Below, one piece after another: positions 21,846-25,886 of a stretch of DNA of 64,000 bases (position 1 is its first letter; every line of letters starts with the position of its first letter). Source of the stretch: Thermoanaerobaculia bacterium (GTDB lineage Bacteria > Acidobacteriota > Thermoanaerobaculia > Gp7-AA8); assembly GCA_036009105.1 (NCBI GenBank), contig DASYMJ010000043.1:25658-89657 (forward strand), given 5' to 3'. The notes under the pieces are model-generated. The model was not told where the DNA came from. It worked only from the letters and a program-made list of their open reading frames with translations, and made no database searches. A program made the translations under genes and the position numbers.

Positions 21846-24800
21846 ATGGCCGCGCGCCTGGCGCGCCTCACCCCGCAGGAGCGCGCCCGGCTCCTGCGCA
21901 GCGCCGCCGCTCGCGCGACGGCCGTTCCCCGCCGCCCGGCCGGGCAGAACGAGCTGCCGCTCTCGCCCGCGCAGCAGCGGATGTGGTTCCTGGAACAGCT
22001 GCAGCCGGGCGCGTATCACTCCTACGACTTCACGCGCCTCATCGGTCCGGTCGATGTGGCGCGCCTCGACGCCGCCTTCCGGGAGATCGTCCGCCGCCAC
22101 GAGGCGCTGCGCACATCGTTCGTCAGCGTGGACGGCACGCCGCGGCAGCTCGTGCACGATGAGGTGCCGTTCTCCATCGCCTCCGTCACCGTGGAGGATC
22201 CCGAGGGTTTCGCGGACGCGGAGACCCTGCGCCCGTTCGATCTCACCCGGGCGCCTTTGCTGCGCGTGACGCTCGTGAACGGGCAACTGCTGCTGGTCAC
22301 GCTGCATCACATCATCTCGGACGGCTGGTCGCTCGGCGTCCTCGATCAGGAGCTGCGCGCGCTGTACGCCGGTGCGTCGCTGCCGGAGCTGCCGGTGCAG
22401 TTCGGCGACGTCGTGTTGTGGCAGCAGTCGCGGACCGGGGAAGGCGTGGACTGGTGGAAGCAGACGCTGAGCGGCGTTCCCGACGTGCTCGACCTGCCCG
22501 CCGACCACCCGCGGCCGGCCGTGCAATCCTTCCGCGGCGCGCGCGTCACGCACACGGTTTCGCCTTCGCTTCTCGCGGAGCTGAACGAGCTCGCCCAGCG
22601 CGAACACGTCACGCTGTTCATGCTCCTGGTCGCCGCCTTCGACGTGCTGCTCTACCGCCACACCGGCCAGAGCGAGTTCGCCGTCGGGACGCCGGTCGCG
22701 AACCGCACGCCGGAGACCGAGCCGCTGATCGGCCTCTTCATCAACACCATCGCCCTGCGGGCGAACCTGAGCGACGACCCATCGTTCCGCGAGCTGCTCG
22801 GGCGCGTGCGCGAGACGTCCCTCGAAGCGTTCGCCCATCAGGACGTGCCGTTCGACCGTGTGGTCGACGCCCTCGCATTACCGCGCAACGCCAATCGCAC
22901 GCCGCTCTACCAGACCATGATCGTCCTCGGCGCGGGGCAGGGGAGCTACGCGCCGCTGGGCGACATCGAGCGGGTGCCGTATCACCCCCACTCCGCCTCC
23001 GCGCGCTTCGACCTGACGCTGTCGATGGCCATCGACGAGACCGGCCTGGTCTGCCTCTTCGACTACGCGGCCGATCTGTTCGATCCGGCCACCGTCGAGG
23101 CCTTCGCGCGCCGCTACGAGATGCTGCTGCGCGGCGCGGCGGCTGATCCGAATACGGCGGTGTCTCGGCTGCCGCTGATGGATGCCGCCGAGCGCGGTGT
23201 CATCCTGAGCCGCGCGGCCGGCGAAGGATCCGTACCGCTCCTGCGCGATACGACGCTCCACGCACTTTTCCAGGAACAGGCCGCCCGCACGCCCGACACG
23301 CCCGCGGTGAACGACGTGACGTACGGGGAGCTCGACCGCTGGTCGGACGAGATCGCCGCCACCATCGACACCCACCTCGTCCCCTTCCTCGCCGACCGCA
23401 CGCCGGCCGCGATCGCGCAACTGCTCGGCATCCTCAAGGCGGGCGCCGCCTACCTCCCCATCGATCCCGCCACGCCGCGGGAGCGCCTCGACTGGCTCGT
23501 CGCGGACAGCAAGTCGGTGGCGCCGGGCGACAACGCATACGTGATCTACACCTCCGGTTCCACCGGCACGCCGAAAGGCGTCGTGGTCAGCCACCGCTCC
23601 GCGGTCAACCTGACCCTGGCTTTCGCGCAAAGCCATCAGTTTGCAGGTCACCGCCTGCTGATGATCCCGCCGCTGCACTTCGACGCCTCGGTGGGCGACG
23701 TCTTCCCCGCCCTCGCCACCGGCGCGACGCTCATCCTCCATCCGTCGCCCGCCGACCTCGACGCCCGCGCGCTGGCCCGCTTCTGCAACGAGCAGGGCGT
23801 CACCGCCATCGACGCGCCGGCCGCGCTCTGGCGCCGCTGGGCCGCGGAGTGGCAGCCCATCCCCGCGCTGCGCCTGATGATGGTGGGCGGTGAGTCGGTG
23901 CCGGTGGATGAAGTGCGCCGCTTCGCGCGCCTGACGAACAACCAGGTCCGCTTCGTCAACCACTACGGCCCGACCGAAGCGACGGTCTGCGCCACGACCT
24001 ATCACACCGTCGACGCGAGCGAGTGCACCACGACCGAGCTCCCCATCGGCAAGCCGATCGCGAACGTCTCCGCATACGTCCTCGACCAGCACCTCCAGCC
24101 GGTGCCGCGGGGCATCGCGGGCGAGCTGTACATCGGCGGCGCCGGCGTGGCGCGCTATCACGGCCGGGAAGAGTTCCTCCCCAACCCGTTCGGCGAGGGC
24201 CGCCTCTATCGCACCGGCGACCTGGCCCGCCGCCTCGCCTCGGGCGACCTCCTCTTCCTCGGCCGCGCCGACCGGCAGATCAAGCTGCGCGGCTTCCGCA
24301 TCGAGCCGGGGGAGATCGAGGCCGCCATCCTCGCCCACGCCGGCATCCGCGCTGCGATCGTGATCAAGCGCGAGGAGCGGCTCGTCGCCTATGTCGTCGG
24401 CGAGACGGAGCTGCAGTTGCACGACCGCCTGCCGGAGTACATGGTGCCGTCCGCGATCGTGCGCCTCGAGGCGCTCCCGCTGACGAGCAACGGCAAGGTG
24501 GACCTCAACGCGTTGCCCGCTCCCCCCCGCACGACCACCAGTTCCCGCGCGCCCCGCAACGAGACGGAGCGCGAGCTGCTGCGCATCTGGTGCGAGGTGT
24601 TGCAGGCAGACGGCCTCGGCATCGACGACTTCTTCGCGCACGGCGGCGACTCCCTCCGCACCATGCCCCTGGTGTTCAAGGTGCGGGAGCGCTTCGGCGC
24701 CGACCTCCCGCTCAGCTCCGTCTTCCGCGCCCCGACCGTGGCGCGCTTCGCCGCGCTCCTCACGCACGGAGCGCAGGCGGACGATCTGGAATCGAAAATC

Positions 24801-25886
24801 GGCACGTTCCGGGCGCCGGCCATCCGGCGCGCAAACATGCCGCCGAAGAACGTCCTCATCACCGGCGCCACCGGCTTCCTCGGCGCGTTCCTCCTCGACG
24901 AGCTGCAGCGCTCCACGAACGCCACCATCTACGCGCTCGTCCGCGCGGCGAACAAGGCAGACGCGATGCGTCGCATCCGGGAGAACCTCGCTTCTTACGG
25001 TCTGACGCCGGATGAGAAACGCATCGTTCCTCTGCTCGGAGACCTGGCCGAGCCGGGTCTCGGCATCACCGAGAACCTGGACGCCATCGACGTGATCTAT
25101 CACAACGGCGGCGCGGTGAACTTCATCGCGCCGTACGAGCGCCTCGCCGCGGCGAACGTGGACGGCACCCGCACGGTGCTGGCCATGGGCCGGCCGGTGC
25201 ACGTCGTCTCCACCCTGGGCGTCCATTTCACCAAGCCGCGCATCGGCCAAGTGGTGACCGAACAGGATCCCCTGCCGCCCGGCAAAGACATCCTGGGCGG
25301 CTACAACGAGACGAAGTGGGTCGCCGACCGCGTGGCCCAGCTGGCCCGCGAGGCCGGCGTGCCGGTCTCCATCCATCGCCCGGCGCGCATCACCGGCGAC
25401 AGCCGCACTGGCGCGCTCAACCCGGCCGATCTCTTTTACAGCTGGATCAAAGGCTGCGTGCAGCTGGGCAGCTTCCCGGACGACGCGCCGCTGCTGAACA
25501 TGGCGCCGGTCGACCACATCGCCCGCTCCATCGTCGCAATCTCCCTGCACATCGAGCAACCGGCCGACTACCACTACTTCAACAACCGCATGCTGCCGCT
25601 GGAGACGCTCGTCTCCACGCTCCGCCGCCGCGGCTTCGAAGCCTCCATCAAGCCGTACCGGCAGTGGATCGAACAGCTGCGCCACGCGCCGGAGAACCCG
25701 CTGGCGAAGTACCTGGCTCTGATGGAAGAGCCGGACCAGGGCGAGCCGGTGTTCGACTGCACGCGCACCGAAAACGCGCTGGCCCGGCTCGGCATCCTCT
25801 GTCCGGCGGCGGATGAAGCCCTGCTCGGCCTCTACCTCGACCAGCTCCTGCCCGAGCCGGCCATCGCCATGAAAGGACACCCATGA
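21846..25886 (+). CDS. Non-ribosomal peptide synthetase, module 3 with terminal thioester reductase (C-A-PCP-R)
   Basis: C domain motifs are SPAQQRMWFLEQL and LHHIISDGWS. A domain motifs are VTYGELDRW, LKAGAAYLPIDP, YVIYTSGSTGTPKGV, NHYGPTEATV, GELYIGGAGVARYHG, GRADRQIKLRGFRIEPGEIE and NGKVDL. The PCP motif is FFAHGGDSLRTM. The R domain has VLITGATGFLGAFLL and GGYNETKW (Y...K). The start could instead be TTG 21831, overlapping the NRPS2 stop. The stop overlaps the MFS gene's ATG. Confidence 0.85.
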   Translation: MAARLARLTPQERARLLRSAAARATAVPRRPAGQNELPLSPAQQRMWFLEQLQPGAYHSYDFTRLIGPVDVARLDAAFREIVRRHEALRTSFVSVDGTPRQLVHDEVPFSIASVTVEDPEGFADAETLRPFDLTRAPLLRVTLVNGQLLLVTLHHIISDGWSLGVLDQELRALYAGASLPELPVQFGDVVLWQQSRTGEGVDWWKQTLSGVPDVLDLPADHPRPAVQSFRGARVTHTVSPSLLAELNELAQREHVTLFMLLVAAFDVLLYRHTGQSEFAVGTPVANRTPETEPLIGLFINTIALRANLSDDPSFRELLGRVRETSLEAFAHQDVPFDRVVDALALPRNANRTPLYQTMIVLGAGQGSYAPLGDIERVPYHPHSASARFDLTLSMAIDETGLVCLFDYAADLFDPATVEAFARRYEMLLRGAAADPNTAVSRLPLMDAAERGVILSRAAGEGSVPLLRDTTLHALFQEQAARTPDTPAVNDVTYGELDRWSDEIAATIDTHLVPFLADRTPAAIAQLLGILKAGAAYLPIDPATPRERLDWLVADSKSVAPGDNAYVIYTSGSTGTPKGVVVSHRSAVNLTLAFAQSHQFAGHRLLMIPPLHFDASVGDVFPALATGATLILHPSPADLDARALARFCNEQGVTAIDAPAALWRRWAAEWQPIPALRLMMVGGESVPVDEVRRFARLTNNQVRFVNHYGPTEATVCATTYHTVDASECTTTELPIGKPIANVSAYVLDQHLQPVPRGIAGELYIGGAGVARYHGREEFLPNPFGEGRLYRTGDLARRLASGDLLFLGRADRQIKLRGFRIEPGEIEAAILAHAGIRAAIVIKREERLVAYVVGETELQLHDRLPEYMVPSAIVRLEALPLTSNGKVDLNALPAPPRTTTSSRAPRNETERELLRIWCEVLQADGLGIDDFFAHGGDSLRTMPLVFKVRERFGADLPLSSVFRAPTVARFAALLTHGAQADDLESKIGTFRAPAIRRANMPPKNVLITGATGFLGAFLLDELQRSTNATIYALVRAANKADAMRRIRENLASYGLTPDEKRIVPLLGDLAEPGLGITENLDAIDVIYHNGGAVNFIAPYERLAAANVDGTRTVLAMGRPVHVVSTLGVHFTKPRIGQVVTEQDPLPPGKDILGGYNETKWVADRVAQLAREAGVPVSIHRPARITGDSRTGALNPADLFYSWIKGCVQLGSFPDDAPLLNMAPVDHIARSIVAISLHIEQPADYHYFNNRMLPLETLVSTLRRRGFEASIKPYRQWIEQLRHAPENPLAKYLALMEEPDQGEPVFDCTRTENALARLGILCPAADEALLGLYLDQLLPEPAIAMKGHP
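23199..23250. repeat. Half-copy (left arm plus part of centre) of the MITE-like GTCATCCTGAG element in the NRPS3 C-A linker
   Basis: gtcatcctgagccgcgcggccggcgaaggatccgtaccgctcctgcgcg matches the left half of the full element at 29315-29410. It encodes VILSRAAGEGSVPLLRD. Confidence 0.6.

What the first reader, a model, noticed from the sequence alone, without database searches (positions are those of the whole stretch)
23270..25886. NRPS3: unusually compact adenylation N-terminal subdomain followed by PCP and a terminal thioester reductase
In module 3 the spacing A1 (VTYGELDRW) to A2 (LKAGAAYLPIDP) to A3 (YVIYTSGSTGTPKG) is roughly 37 aa and 30 aa. In modules 1 and 2 the same intervals are about 45 aa and 65-95 aa. 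A4-A10 are all present (FDASV, NHYGPTEATV, GELYIGGAGVARYHG, GRADRQIKLRGFRIEPGEIE, NGKVDL). The first two pocket residues from the FDASVG context are D-A, and the residue three further on is Gly rather than a bulky side chain. This hints at a large aromatic substrate, which would fit the KMO. The R domain has GATGFLG and YNETK catalytic signatures, predicting NAD(P)H-dependent release as an aldehyde.
Basis: partly seen in the sequence, partly recalled or inferred. Interest (0 to 1): 0.5.

Follow-up and report, generated by a model that had tools for sequence, protein, structure and literature searches.

The report
Shrunken but working NRPS adenylation domain
The last module of a three-enzyme peptide assembly line has an amino-acid-activating domain about 15% shorter than its relatives; it looks fully functional and probably loads an oxidised tryptophan made by two neighbouring oxygenases.

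Summary
NRPS3 (21831/21846-25886, C-A-PCP-R) has an adenylation (A) domain of 391 aa from A1 to A10. Its two sister modules measure 451-469 aa and its Lysobacter orthologue 461 aa. The A2-A3 interval (39 aa) is shorter than in any of about 750 other A domains measured (minimum 57, median 79).

AlphaFold models show that a strand-helix-strand unit after the post-A2 helix is gone. Five smaller surface segments are also trimmed.

This is not decay or artefact:
- All core motifs are intact.
- The 10-residue specificity code DAGDMGHVCK is invariant in 16 orthologues.
- dN/dS is about 0.1 in the A core against 0.23 for the whole protein.
- Independent metagenomes show the same architecture.

The shrinkage is confined to one acidobacterial clade. 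All 41 non-acidobacterial orthologues with the same code have canonical lengths.

Across 55 loci the code co-occurs with a DUF6875 ("cytochrome P422") tryptophan hydroxylase (55/55), a kynurenine-3-monooxygenase (KMO)-like flavoenzyme (53/55) and a reductase (R) domain (52/55). The substrate is therefore probably an oxidised Trp-derived amino acid. Its exact identity, and whether release gives an aldehyde or an alcohol, are unresolved. I class this as a new variant of a known kind, of moderate interest.

The parts
21831..25886 (+). NRPS3 gene, C-A-PCP-R. NCBI's model starts at TTG 21831 (1351 aa). The ATG at 21846 gives 1346 aa, the numbering used here.
   Evidence: ORF and GC3 frame analysis; Pfam Condensation, AMP-binding, AMP-binding_C, PP-binding and NAD_binding_4; 100% identical database protein P0001 of 1351 aa, Thermoanaerobaculia MAG.
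21945..23198 (+). Condensation domain (aa 34-451) with an intact HHIISDGWS active-site motif.
   Evidence: Pfam PF00668, 321.8 bits; sequence.
23271..24521 (+). Compact adenylation domain (aa 476-892); A1 to A10 spans 391 aa.
   Evidence: Motif positions; Pfam PF00501 matched in two stretches; TIGR01733 354 bits against a cut-off of 317; AF2 model pLDDT 83, pTM 0.74; Foldseek TM 0.70-0.80 to solved NRPS A domains.
23499..23534 (+). Junction (aa 552-563, VADSKSVAPGDN) where the canonical strand-helix-strand unit between A2 and A3 is missing.
   Evidence: The phmmer alignment to LgrA breaks here, and LgrA residues 305-343 have no counterpart. The AF2 model of NRPS3 has helix 78-88 followed directly by the A3 strand 96-102. 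The canonical NRPS2 model has E97-100, H103-106 and E116-118 in between. The Lysobacter orthologue has 37 extra residues here.
23679..23999 (+). Substrate-pocket region from A4 (FDASVGD) through TAIDAPAALWRRW and MMVGGE to A5 (NHYGPTEATVCAT). It yields the code DAGDMGHVC(K).
   Evidence: Alignment to GrsA PheA with numbering verified against 1AMU. Invariant in 16 family members. This is the most conserved part of the protein (80% mean identity; dN/dS 0.10).
24573..24761 (+). PCP domain (aa 910-972) with GGDSL (Ser936).
   Evidence: Pfam PF00550; sequence.
24852..25850 (+). Terminal thioester reductase domain (aa 1003-1335) with TGATGFLG and Y1153-x3-K1157.
   Evidence: PF07993, 170.9 bits; TIGR01746 254 bits against a cut-off of 213; sequence.
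15236..18502 (+). NRPS1, C-A-PCP; code DILQITLVYK (small pocket); canonical A-domain length.
18499..21834 (+). NRPS2, C-A-PCP; code DILQLGVVWK (Gly-like); canonical A-domain length.
25883..27196 (+). MFS_3 / EntS-like exporter.
   Evidence: Pfam; NCBIfam; present in 55/55 loci carrying the code.
27193..27990 (+). DUF6875 / 'cytochrome P422'-type heme-thiolate L-tryptophan hydroxylase.
   Evidence: PF21780, 193 bits. All four published motifs are present: RPGPVCP at 81, DQVQSELK at 156, MIGEF at 172, RHMVETDLPF at 203. It is 55% identical to the Lysobacter capsici protein, whose 90% cluster contains the assayed N1-hydroxylase Lc584.
27993..29306 (+). KMO-family FAD monooxygenase.
   Evidence: PF01494. 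P. fluorescens, human and yeast KMO structures match at E 1e-61 to 5e-88 over the full length. Positions aligned to R84, Y98, N369 and Y404 are conserved; H320 is Y and M373 is L (residue roles are from memory).
11260..15233 (+). GT87 membrane glycosyltransferase (11260-12978) and DUF5916 protein (12975-15233). Their reading frames overlap or abut those of the NRPS genes, and they are conserved with the cluster.
   Evidence: Pfam. Same order in L002-L005. They lie downstream of the KMO-like gene in Rugamonas and Janthinobacterium loci.

Best explanation
NRPS3 is the terminal C-A-PCP-R module of a conserved operon: NRPS1, NRPS2, NRPS3, an MFS exporter, a P422 Trp hydroxylase and a KMO-like flavoenzyme, preceded here by GT87 and DUF5916 genes.

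Its adenylation domain is a working domain that has shrunk by stepwise loss of surface elements. Compared with orthologues that have the identical 10-residue specificity code, such as the Lysobacter capsici one, it has lost about 70 residues in six places:
- a 4-aa hairpin turn before A1;
- 6 aa of the A1 helix and loop;
- the roughly 37-40-aa strand-helix-strand between A2 and A3;
- the short helix after A6;
- a 5-aa hairpin turn in the C-terminal subdomain;
- the helix before A9.

The P-loop, all other core motifs, Asp235/Lys517 and the whole substrate pocket are retained and strongly conserved.

Inferred mechanism. The domain adenylates an oxidised, Trp-derived aromatic amino acid supplied as a free amino acid by the adjacent P422 and KMO-like enzymes. 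Most likely this is a hydroxylated tryptophan, for example 1-hydroxy-Trp carrying a further ring hydroxyl. Less likely it is a hydroxykynurenine. The domain loads the amino acid onto its PCP. The C domain joins it to an X-Gly intermediate from NRPS1 and NRPS2. The R domain releases the tripeptide reductively with NAD(P)H as an aldehyde or alcohol, and the MFS exports it.

What is shown: the anatomy, the conservation, the phylogenetic distribution and the gene co-occurrence. What is inferred: catalytic activity, substrate identity and release chemistry.
For: Real deletions:
- HMM alignment to LgrA.
- Alignment to GrsA, NRPS1, NRPS2 and P0016.
- Alignment to the Lysobacter orthologue.
- AF2 secondary structure of NRPS3 against canonical NRPS2.
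- Inter-motif table.

Outlier status: about 750 background A domains never fall below 57 aa for A2-A3.

Functional:
- All motifs are present.
- TIGR01733 and Pfam scores are above their cut-offs.
- The AF2 model is confident (pLDDT 83), with low confidence only at the P-loop and the A10 loop.
- Foldseek TM 0.70-0.80 to solved A domains.
- The code is invariant in 16 orthologues of 57-84% identity.
- A3-A5 is the most conserved segment, at 80%.
- dN/dS against P0002 and P0004 is 0.10 for A3-A5 and 0.08-0.11 for Asub, compared with 0.23 for the whole protein.

Derived and stepwise:
- P0016 and all 41 non-acidobacterial orthologues are canonical. The other family members are intermediate, with A2-A3 of 36-103 aa filled by low-complexity sequence. 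The window's sub-clade is among the shortest.
- NRPS1 and NRPS2 are not shortened.

Substrate:
- Among 55 loci with the code, 55 have P422, 53 have a KMO-like gene, 52 have an R domain and 55 have an MFS, including a different NRPS architecture (L058).
- P422 loci of cyanobacteria without a KMO-like gene carry a different A code, DPWAxGxID.
- P422 enzymes hydroxylate free L-Trp (preprint).
- The closest assayed relatives are N1-hydroxylases.
- The KMO-like protein keeps the residues that bind the amino-acid carboxylate.
- NRPS1 and NRPS2 have Gly-like small pockets.
Against: - No enzyme assay exists, and no A domain lacking this unit has been shown to be active.
- AF2 confidence does not prove stability.
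- The specificity code has no characterised match that I could find, so the substrate rests on gene co-occurrence.
- P422 regiochemistry can differ between relatives at 55% identity.
- The KMO-like enzyme may act on kynurenine supplied by housekeeping tryptophan dioxygenase.
- D278 and H322 could also fit a cationic side chain.
- Twelve loci with a KMO-like gene showed no A domain with the code within the sequence held. Seven of these loci are short or start so close to the MFS gene that little or no NRPS sequence is held upstream. In five (L040, L042, L048, L049, L056) the NRPS next to the MFS ends with the Gly-like module.
- The role of the first C domain of NRPS1, and hence the N-terminal group of the product, is unknown.
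Confidence: 0.7

Rival explanations
1. The substrate is specifically L-kynurenine or 3-hydroxykynurenine. Housekeeping tryptophan dioxygenase and formamidase make kynurenine, the cluster KMO makes 3-hydroxykynurenine, and the A domain loads it.
For: The flavoenzyme is a close KMO homologue (E 4.7e-88 to PfKMO, full length). The residues aligned to R84, Y98, N369 and Y404 are conserved. The code begins DAG and ends VCK, like aromatic codes (the comparison with known codes is from memory).
Against: No tryptophan dioxygenase, formamidase or kynureninase was found in the window. None is among the called genes with a Pfam hit on record in L001-L005 and L007; the last, cut gene of L004 was not looked up. 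It leaves the always-present P422 Trp hydroxylase without a role, because only one A domain has a large pocket. H320 is Y and M373 is L in the aromatic part of the KMO pocket. VioC, an indole-hydroxylating KMO relative, is the best NCBIfam hit.
Confidence: 0.25
2. The compact A domain is a decaying, catalytically dead relic kept only as a scaffold. The PCP is loaded in trans or the module is skipped.
For: Part of the canonical fold is missing. The A2-A3 filler in relatives looks like neutrally drifting low-complexity sequence. The A6 motif reads ARYHG instead of ARGY.
Against: All catalytic motifs, including the P-loop, A5, A7, A8 and the A10 Lys, are intact. The pocket code is invariant across 57-84% identity. 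dN/dS is about 0.1, lower than in the C, PCP and R domains. The A3-A5 core is the most conserved segment. No stand-alone A domain is present in any conserved cluster.
Confidence: 0.07
3. The short intervals are an assembly or gene-calling artefact of a metagenome-assembled genome.
For: The window comes from a MAG. One related contig (L006) is full of frameshifts.
Against: The reading frame is open and GC3-consistent across the whole gene. The identical 39/39/313 architecture is found in independent assemblies: L004 (JGI), L005/L009 (NCBI) and L008. There is a graded series of intermediates in other MAGs.
Confidence: 0.02
4. The A domain activates a cationic amino acid (Orn, Lys or Arg), with Asp278 as counter-charge. 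The product would be a leupeptin-like peptide aldehyde ending in a basic residue.
For: Gly239 and an acidic residue at 278 recall Orn and Lys codes such as DVGEIGSIDK and DAEDIGxVVK (from memory). DAEDIGTVV-type codes were among the nearest pocket relatives.
Against: It would leave both Trp-family oxygenases, which co-occur with the code in 53-55 of 55 loci, without any acceptor A domain. His322 and Cys331 are not typical of those codes.
Confidence: 0.05

Closest known systems
Canonical NRPS adenylation domains (GrsA PheA 1AMU; LgrA 6MFY; DhbF 5U89)
   Same: ANL fold, all ten core motifs, Asp235/Lys517, and a two-subdomain architecture. Foldseek TM 0.70-0.80; phmmer E down to 5e-132.
   Different: It lacks the strand-helix-strand between A2 and A3, about 40 residues corresponding to LgrA 305-343. 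It also has five smaller deletions. A1-A10 spans 391 aa against 451-469.
Orthologous C-A-PCP-R synthetase of Lysobacter capsici (locus L007) and 40 other non-acidobacterial orthologues
   Same: Same module order, the same code DAGDMGHVCK, and the same neighbours (MFS, DUF6875/P422, KMO-like). 52% identity.
   Different: The orthologues have canonical lengths (A1-A2 45, A2-A3 77-105, A3-A10 339-384; the L. capsici protein is 1516 aa). The window protein is 1346 aa.
Interrupted A domains (TioN, MarQ: methyltransferase inserted between a2 and a3)
   Same: They show that the a2-a3 segment is a structurally permissive site of the A domain (PMC11355689, PMC8097286).
   Different: Those carry an insertion of a whole extra domain. 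Here the native segment is deleted. I found no paper describing a natural deletion.
Reductase-terminated NRPS modules (MxcG of myxochelin, AusA of aureusimine, MxaA of myxalamid)
   Same: A terminal PCP-R with the TIGR01746 reductase. The best NCBIfam whole-protein similarities include AusA and MxcG.
   Different: Scores are far below the equivalog cut-offs (579-604 against 2300-2500), so it is not an orthologue. The substrate code and gene neighbourhood differ.
Cytochrome P422 (DUF6875)-associated NRPS clusters described in bioRxiv 10.64898/2025.12.11.692455
   Same: A P422 Trp hydroxylase sits beside an NRPS, and the preprint proposes that it supplies hydroxy-Trp building blocks.
   Different: The preprint does not list Acidobacteriota among the phyla sampled. 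'KMO' and 'Acidobacteri' do not occur in its supplement. I found no link in it between P422 and an A-domain code or a KMO-like partner, though I read only parts of it.

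Membership tests
NRPS amino-acid adenylation domain (ANL superfamily; PF00501/PF13193; TIGR01733) | Profile scores above the curated cut-offs. | tested here: met
   PF00501 218.7 bits (cut-off 29.9, but matched in two stretches); PF13193 33.9 (24.5); TIGR01733 354.4 (317.4).
NRPS amino-acid adenylation domain (ANL superfamily; PF00501/PF13193; TIGR01733) | Ten core motifs A1-A10, including the P-loop (A3), the A7 Asp, the A8 hinge and the A10 Lys. 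| tested here: met
   All were located. A6 is slightly atypical (ARYHG in place of ARGY).
NRPS amino-acid adenylation domain (ANL superfamily; PF00501/PF13193; TIGR01733) | Asp235 and Lys517, which bind the alpha-amino and carboxylate groups of an alpha-amino acid. | tested here: met
   The code is D...K, derived on verified 1AMU numbering.
NRPS amino-acid adenylation domain (ANL superfamily; PF00501/PF13193; TIGR01733) | Complete canonical N-terminal subdomain, with A1-A2 of about 45 aa and a strand-helix-strand between A2 and A3 (interval about 60-90 aa). | tested here: not met
   Measured 39 and 39 aa. The unit is absent in the AF2 model and in HMM alignments.
NRPS amino-acid adenylation domain (ANL superfamily; PF00501/PF13193; TIGR01733) | Overall fold. 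| tested here: met
   AF2 pLDDT 83, pTM 0.74. The top 50 Foldseek PDB hits listed are all adenylation domains of NRPS systems, with TMq 0.69-0.80.
NRPS amino-acid adenylation domain (ANL superfamily; PF00501/PF13193; TIGR01733) | ATP-dependent adenylation and thioesterification activity. | not testable with these tools
   Only indirect evidence is available: dN/dS of about 0.1 and an invariant pocket.
NRPS terminal thioester reductase (TIGR01746 / PF07993, SDR fold) | Profile score above the cut-off. | tested here: met
   TIGR01746 254.1 (cut-off 213.35); PF07993 170.9 (20.1).
NRPS terminal thioester reductase (TIGR01746 / PF07993, SDR fold) | Rossmann motif TGxxGxxG and catalytic Y-x3-K. | tested here: met
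   TGATGFLG at 1006-1013; Y1153-N-E-T-K1157. Both are invariant in the family.
NRPS terminal thioester reductase (TIGR01746 / PF07993, SDR fold) | Two-electron (aldehyde) versus four-electron (alcohol) release. | not testable with these tools
   I know of no sequence rule that would decide this.
Cytochrome P422 / DUF6875 L-Trp hydroxylases | PF21780 membership and the heme-binding motif RxGxVCP. | tested here: met
   193.1 bits (cut-off 24.5); RPGPVCP at residue 81. The motif is taken from the preprint.
Cytochrome P422 / DUF6875 L-Trp hydroxylases | Substrate-binding motifs SBR1 Rx(M/L)x3Dx2F, SBR2 Dx2(Q/H)x3K and SBR3 MxGxF. | tested here: met
   RHMVETDLPF at 203, DQVQSELK at 156, MIGEF at 172.
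Cytochrome P422 / DUF6875 L-Trp hydroxylases | Regiochemistry (N1, C6 or C7). | tested here: inconclusive
   The nearest assayed relatives are all N1-hydroxylases: L. capsici AZ78 Lc584, Lysobacter Ls950 and Ls910, and Rugamonas rubra Rr391. Identity to them is only about 46-55%.
Kynurenine 3-monooxygenase | Full-length similarity to solved KMOs. | tested here: met
   6FOX at E 4.7e-88, residues 3-418 of 437; also human or rat and yeast KMO.
Kynurenine 3-monooxygenase | L-Kyn-binding residues (PfKMO R84, Y98, N369, Y404, H320, M373; residue roles recalled from memory). | tested here: inconclusive
   R84, Y98, N369 and Y404 are conserved. H320 is Y and M373 is L.
Kynurenine 3-monooxygenase | Pathway context: tryptophan dioxygenase and kynurenine formamidase nearby. 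| tested here: not met
   None was found in the 64-kb window. None is among the called genes with a Pfam hit on record in L001-L005 and L007; several small genes have no hit and the cut last gene of L004 was not looked up. The other loci were not scanned for them.

The most novel reading that the evidence does not exclude
Two linked readings remain open.

(1) The acidobacterial enzymes are a natural series of progressively minimised adenylation domains. They would show that the strand-helix-strand between A2 and A3, and several other surface elements of the ANL fold, are dispensable for amino-acid activation. That would be a ready-made blueprint for smaller engineered A domains.

(2) The invariant code DAGDMGHVCK marks a previously unassigned NRPS specificity for a doubly oxidised tryptophan, such as an N1-hydroxy tryptophan with a further ring hydroxyl that could chelate metal. 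Two free-amino-acid oxygenases (P422 plus a KMO-like enzyme recruited to an indole substrate) would make it. It would be built into an unknown X-Gly-(oxidised Trp) aldehyde or alcohol. The cluster is widespread in soil Acidobacteriota, Lysobacteraceae, Oxalobacteraceae and others, and is linked to a GT87/DUF5916 envelope gene pair.
Probability: 0.3. Interest if true: 0.75.

Novelty: new variant of a known kind. Interest (0 to 1): 0.55.

Why it matters
A domains are the gatekeepers of nonribosomal peptide synthesis and the main target of NRPS engineering. Their size and rigid architecture are practical obstacles.

This natural, strongly conserved A domain lacks a whole strand-helix-strand unit. 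Full-length orthologues with the same specificity code, and evolutionary intermediates, are available for comparison. Together they make it directly testable which parts of the ANL N-terminal subdomain are needed for folding, catalysis and contacts with the C domain.

The work also ties an unassigned specificity code to the newly described P422 tryptophan hydroxylases and a KMO-like partner in 55 loci from several phyla. This flags a widespread, uncharacterised family of reductively released tripeptides. Culturable producers (Lysobacter capsici, L. enzymogenes, Rugamonas, Janthinobacterium) could be used to find the product.

Tried and rejected
- A full-text search for the code DAGDMGHVCK found nothing. 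The same search surfaced the DUF6875 papers.
- Searches for 'truncated/compact/minimal adenylation domain' found no description of a natural A2-A3 deletion.
- Searches for N-hydroxytryptophan and for Lysobacter/kynurenine/reductase domain found no paper on this cluster's product.
- The search for homologous proteins with only the pocket region listed only proteins of about 350 aa or less, mostly fragments, at 56% identity or less. It was useless for a survey, but it yielded P0121, which led to the distant, frameshift-ridden cluster L006 with the same code.
- The one representative-library search, with the A1-A4 segment as query, was meant to pull out other compact A domains. It ranked giant multi-module synthetases by summed score instead. 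I reused those proteins as a background of 562 A domains.
- PDB sequence search of the DUF6875 protein gave no meaningful hit.
- dN/dS against the more distant orthologues (P0009, P0013, P0016) is unreliable because dS is saturated or biased by GC3. Only the two closest pairs were used.
- Pairwise code extraction in the 80-locus scan jitters at position 301 (G/V/I) and at 278 in the Gly-like modules. The multiple-alignment codes are the reliable ones.
- Rejected: artefact, pseudogene or relic, and a link between compaction and substrate specificity.

Full report
**Context.** The window is about 69% G+C. Its NRPS3 protein is 100% identical to a protein annotated from a Thermoanaerobaculia (Acidobacteriota) MAG. 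GC3 frame analysis and start-codon inspection define a run of eight plus-strand genes whose reading frames overlap or abut:
- GT87 glycosyltransferase, 11260-12978
- DUF5916, 12975-15233
- NRPS1 (C-A-PCP), 15236-18502
- NRPS2 (C-A-PCP), 18499-21834
- NRPS3 (C-A-PCP-R), 21831/21846-25886
- MFS_3 exporter, 25883-27196
- DUF6875, 27193-27990
- FAD_binding_3 monooxygenase, 27993-29306

The rest of the window encodes unrelated housekeeping, transport and peptidase genes. It contains no tryptophan dioxygenase, formamidase or MbtH-like protein.

**Checking the observation.** The finding's coordinates run from the start of the NRPS3 A domain to the stop codon. All quoted motifs are present.

Motif-to-motif distances are 39 aa (A1-A2) and 35 aa (A2-A3) in NRPS3. 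They are 45/76 in NRPS1 and 45/92 in NRPS2. A1-A10 spans 391 aa against 451 and 469.

Backgrounds measured with the same regular expressions within each set:
- 143 A domains of homologous synthetases: A1-A2 45 (5th and 95th percentiles both 45); A2-A3 median 79, minimum 57; A3-A10 median 335, minimum 321.
- 562 further A domains from the representative library: A2-A3 minimum 57, first percentile 59; A1-A2 minimum 40; A3-A10 first percentile 317.
- NRPS3: 39 / 39 / 313. It lies beyond the minimum on A1-A2 and A2-A3 in both background sets. On A3-A10 it is below the minimum of the first set and within the lowest 1% of the second.

The shortest background domains (57-59 aa) still keep the first beta-strand after the post-A2 helix. 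NRPS3 does not.

**What is missing.** The phmmer alignment to LgrA splits in two, and LgrA residues 305-343 have no counterpart. AlphaFold2 models were made for the NRPS3 A domain (pLDDT 83, pTM 0.74) and for the canonical NRPS2 A domain of the same window (pLDDT 82).

In NRPS2 the helix after A2 (H84-94) is followed by strand E97-100, helix H103-106, strand E116-118 and a loop, and only then by the A3 strand. In NRPS3 the equivalent helix (H78-88) is followed after seven residues by the A3 strand (E96-102).

NRPS3 also differs in these ways:
- a shorter A1 helix (12 against 17 residues);
- no helix after A6 (NRPS2 H365-371);
- no helix before A9 (NRPS2 H462-470).

The alignment with the Lysobacter orthologue shows six discrete gaps. 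The compact model still superposes on solved NRPS A domains (TM 0.70-0.80, best DhbF 5U89). Its only very-low-confidence segments are the P-loop and the A10 loop. I infer, but did not show, that the lost strands lie at the periphery of the N-terminal sheet.

**Not an artefact and not a relic.**
- The ORF is open and frame-consistent.
- The identical 39/39/313 architecture recurs in independent assemblies: L004, L005/L009 and L008.
- In a 16-member orthologue alignment (57-84% identity) the pocket strings FDASVGD, TAIDAPAALWRRW, MMVGGE and NHYGPTEATVCAT are invariant.
- The A3-A5 core is the most conserved part of the protein, at 80% mean identity. The C domain is at 62%, the R domain at 65% and the A2-A3 junction at 41%.
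- Nei-Gojobori dN/dS against the two closest orthologues is 0.10 (A3-A5) and 0.08-0.11 (C-terminal subdomain), against 0.23 for the whole protein.

**Evolution of the compaction.** Within the acidobacterial family the A2-A3 interval ranges from 36 to 103 aa. It is mostly filled with low-complexity, non-canonical sequence. Only the most divergent member (P0016) has canonical intervals: 45 / 75, A1-A10 460.

Several deletions are nested. The A1-loop and C-terminal hairpin deletions are shared by nearly all members. The pre-A1 deletion is confined to the window's sub-clade. The post-A6 and pre-A9 deletions are each shared with a few other members. The R domain of that sub-clade also lost two 5-aa segments. 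NRPS1 and NRPS2 keep normal lengths.

A scan of GTDB species genomes with a DUF6875 profile returned 80 loci. Counting those, the window and the seven loci fetched earlier, 55 contain an A domain with the code DAG.M.HVC. All 41 non-acidobacterial ones are canonical: A1-A2 45, A2-A3 77-105, A3-A10 339-384. They come from Lysobacter, Arenimonas, Thermomonas, Ahniellaceae, Rugamonas, Janthinobacterium and MAGs labelled Chitinophaga and Anaerolineae, among others. The 14 acidobacterial ones range from canonical down to 39/39/312. A few loci are duplicates of one contig (L009 = L005, L013 = L001).

The compaction is therefore a derived, lineage-specific, stepwise reduction, and it is unrelated to specificity. 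The a2-a3 segment is already known as a permissive site, because methyltransferase domains are inserted there in TioN and MarQ (PMC11355689, PMC8097286). I found no report of its natural deletion.

**Specificity.** I verified my GrsA reference sequence and its numbering against 1AMU. The Stachelhaus codes are:
- NRPS1: DILQITLVYK
- NRPS2: DILQLGVVWK
- NRPS3: DAGDMGHVCK

The first two resemble glycine codes with small pockets. That comparison is from memory. Only NRPS3, with Gly239 and Gly301, has room for a large side chain. I found no published match to its code.

**Neighbouring oxygenases.** DUF6875 was recently described as 'cytochrome P422', a family of heme-thiolate enzymes that hydroxylate free L-Trp at N1, C6 or C7. 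They are often encoded in NRPS clusters (bioRxiv 10.64898/2025.12.11.692455). A second paper supports this (PMC13307353).

The window protein has all four published motifs. Its closest named relatives are Lysobacter proteins, at 55% identity. The L. capsici protein P0292 shares a 90%-identity cluster with AZ78_3566 of L. capsici AZ78 (271 aa). By strain and length, that matches Lc584 (A0A108UBG6) in the preprint's Supplementary Table 5, where it is listed as a Trp N1-hydroxylase. Two other Lysobacter proteins and a Rugamonas rubra protein are listed there with the same activity. The P0292 gene lies in a cluster with the same gene order as the window: C-A-T, C-A-T, C-A-T-R, MFS_3, DUF6875, FAD monooxygenase. 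The NRPS3 orthologue there has the identical code.

The flavoenzyme is a KMO-family member: PfKMO E 4.7e-88 over the full length, with VioC as best NCBIfam hit, below its cut-off. The residues aligned to PfKMO R84, Y98, N369 and Y404 are conserved, while H320 is Y and M373 is L. The roles of those residues are from memory.

**Co-occurrence.**
- All 55 loci with the code have a P422 gene. This holds by construction for the 80 scanned loci.
- 53 have the KMO-like gene, 52 an R domain and 55 the MFS.
- One Lysobacter locus has the code in an internal module of a different NRPS (L058).
- P422 loci of cyanobacteria lack the KMO-like gene and instead neighbour A domains coded DPWAxGxID.

Both oxygenase families act on free amino acids, and only one A domain has a large pocket. 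The most economical reading is that NRPS3 activates a tryptophan oxidised by both enzymes. A hydroxykynurenine made with housekeeping tryptophan dioxygenase remains possible, at about 25%.

**Release and product.** The R domain passes TIGR01746 (254 against 213) and carries TGATGFLG and Y1153-x3-K1157. Reductive release is expected. Whether it yields an aldehyde or an alcohol cannot be told from sequence.

The predicted product is X-Gly-(oxidised Trp)-al or -ol, where X is a small residue. It may be N-acylated, because NRPS1 begins with a C domain that has an intact HHxxxDG. I did not test that. No paper in the held library describes this cluster's product.

**Verdict.**
- A large aromatic, KMO-linked substrate and a competent R domain are supported.
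- The kynurenine reading is weakened, and the P422 gene was missed.
- The compaction is domain-wide and independent of specificity.

This is a new variant of a known kind: a reductively evolved yet conserved NRPS A domain that carries an unassigned specificity code, in a widespread orphan cluster. Interest 0.55.

Noticed in passing
window 11260-15233; also L002-L005, L039, L047, L051, L055, L059, L065, L068 (GT87 + DUF5916) and L001, L006, L066, L071-L073 (DUF5916 only): A GT87 membrane glycosyltransferase and a DUF5916 protein travel with the NRPS/P422/KMO cluster across phyla. They lie upstream of NRPS1 in Acidobacteriota and downstream of the KMO-like gene in Rugamonas and Janthinobacterium. 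This suggests a functional link, perhaps envelope, export or uptake, that I cannot explain. They were not seen within 10 kb in most Lysobacter loci.
   Followed up: partly
L062, L067, L069, L074-L079, L081-L086 (cyanobacteria): P422 genes in cyanobacterial loci have no KMO-like, MFS or R-domain neighbour. They sit next to A domains with a different conserved code, DPWAxGxID. This may be a second specificity, tied to singly hydroxylated Trp.
   Followed up: partly
L040, L042, L048, L049, L056 (Lysobacteraceae and related MAGs): In these cluster variants the NRPS next to MFS-P422-KMO ends with the Gly-like module. No A domain with the DAGDMGHVC code and no R domain were found within the 10-kb flanks.
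   Followed up: no
L058 and L063 (Lysobacter sp. ISL-50; Lysobacteraceae MAG): The DAGDMGHVC A domain occurs in an internal module followed by a module with a Cys-like code (DLYTNALT / DLFTNALT). In L058 it is preceded by an Orn-like code (DMENMGAVD). So the same building block is used in a different, non-reductive NRPS.
   Followed up: no
window 15236-15325, 18425-18499, 18499-18588, 21763-21831, 21846-21917: All three NRPS proteins start with a similar helical motif (L-S/T-x-x-K/E-R-A-L-L). NRPS1 and NRPS2 end with LSDDE/LSEDEL-type tails. These look like matching docking elements. NRPS1 also has the N-terminal element although no upstream partner is encoded in the cluster.
   Followed up: no
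window 20362-20454 (NRPS2 aa 622-652): The canonical NRPS2 A domain carries a Gly/Ser/Ala-rich insert of about 30 aa in the same A2-A3 loop. AF2 predicts it to be disordered (pLDDT 33-46). This is the opposite length change at the same site.
   Followed up: partly
L001 16292-17691: The acidobacterial cluster on the 869-kb contig lacks an adjacent GT87. It adds a phosphopantetheinyl transferase-like gene and an O-methyltransferase next to the KMO-like gene, which hints at O-methylation of a hydroxyl on the residue.
   Followed up: no
L006 (GCA_024708825.1, JAMXTH010001073.1): This related cluster has a rearranged gene order and the same A-domain code. It is broken by many frameshifts, which means either a low-quality long-read assembly or a pseudogenised cluster.
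   Followed up: partly
window 24852-25850 (R domain), alignment columns 1401-1500 of A1: The R domain of the window's sub-clade has also lost two 5-aa segments relative to other family members. The tendency to deletion therefore affects the whole NRPS3 protein, but not NRPS1 or NRPS2.
   Followed up: partly
window 29750-34043 (minus strand): An AcrB-type RND pump and a HlyD-type membrane-fusion protein lie immediately downstream, convergent with the cluster. They are not conserved next to the cluster in the other loci examined.
   Followed up: no
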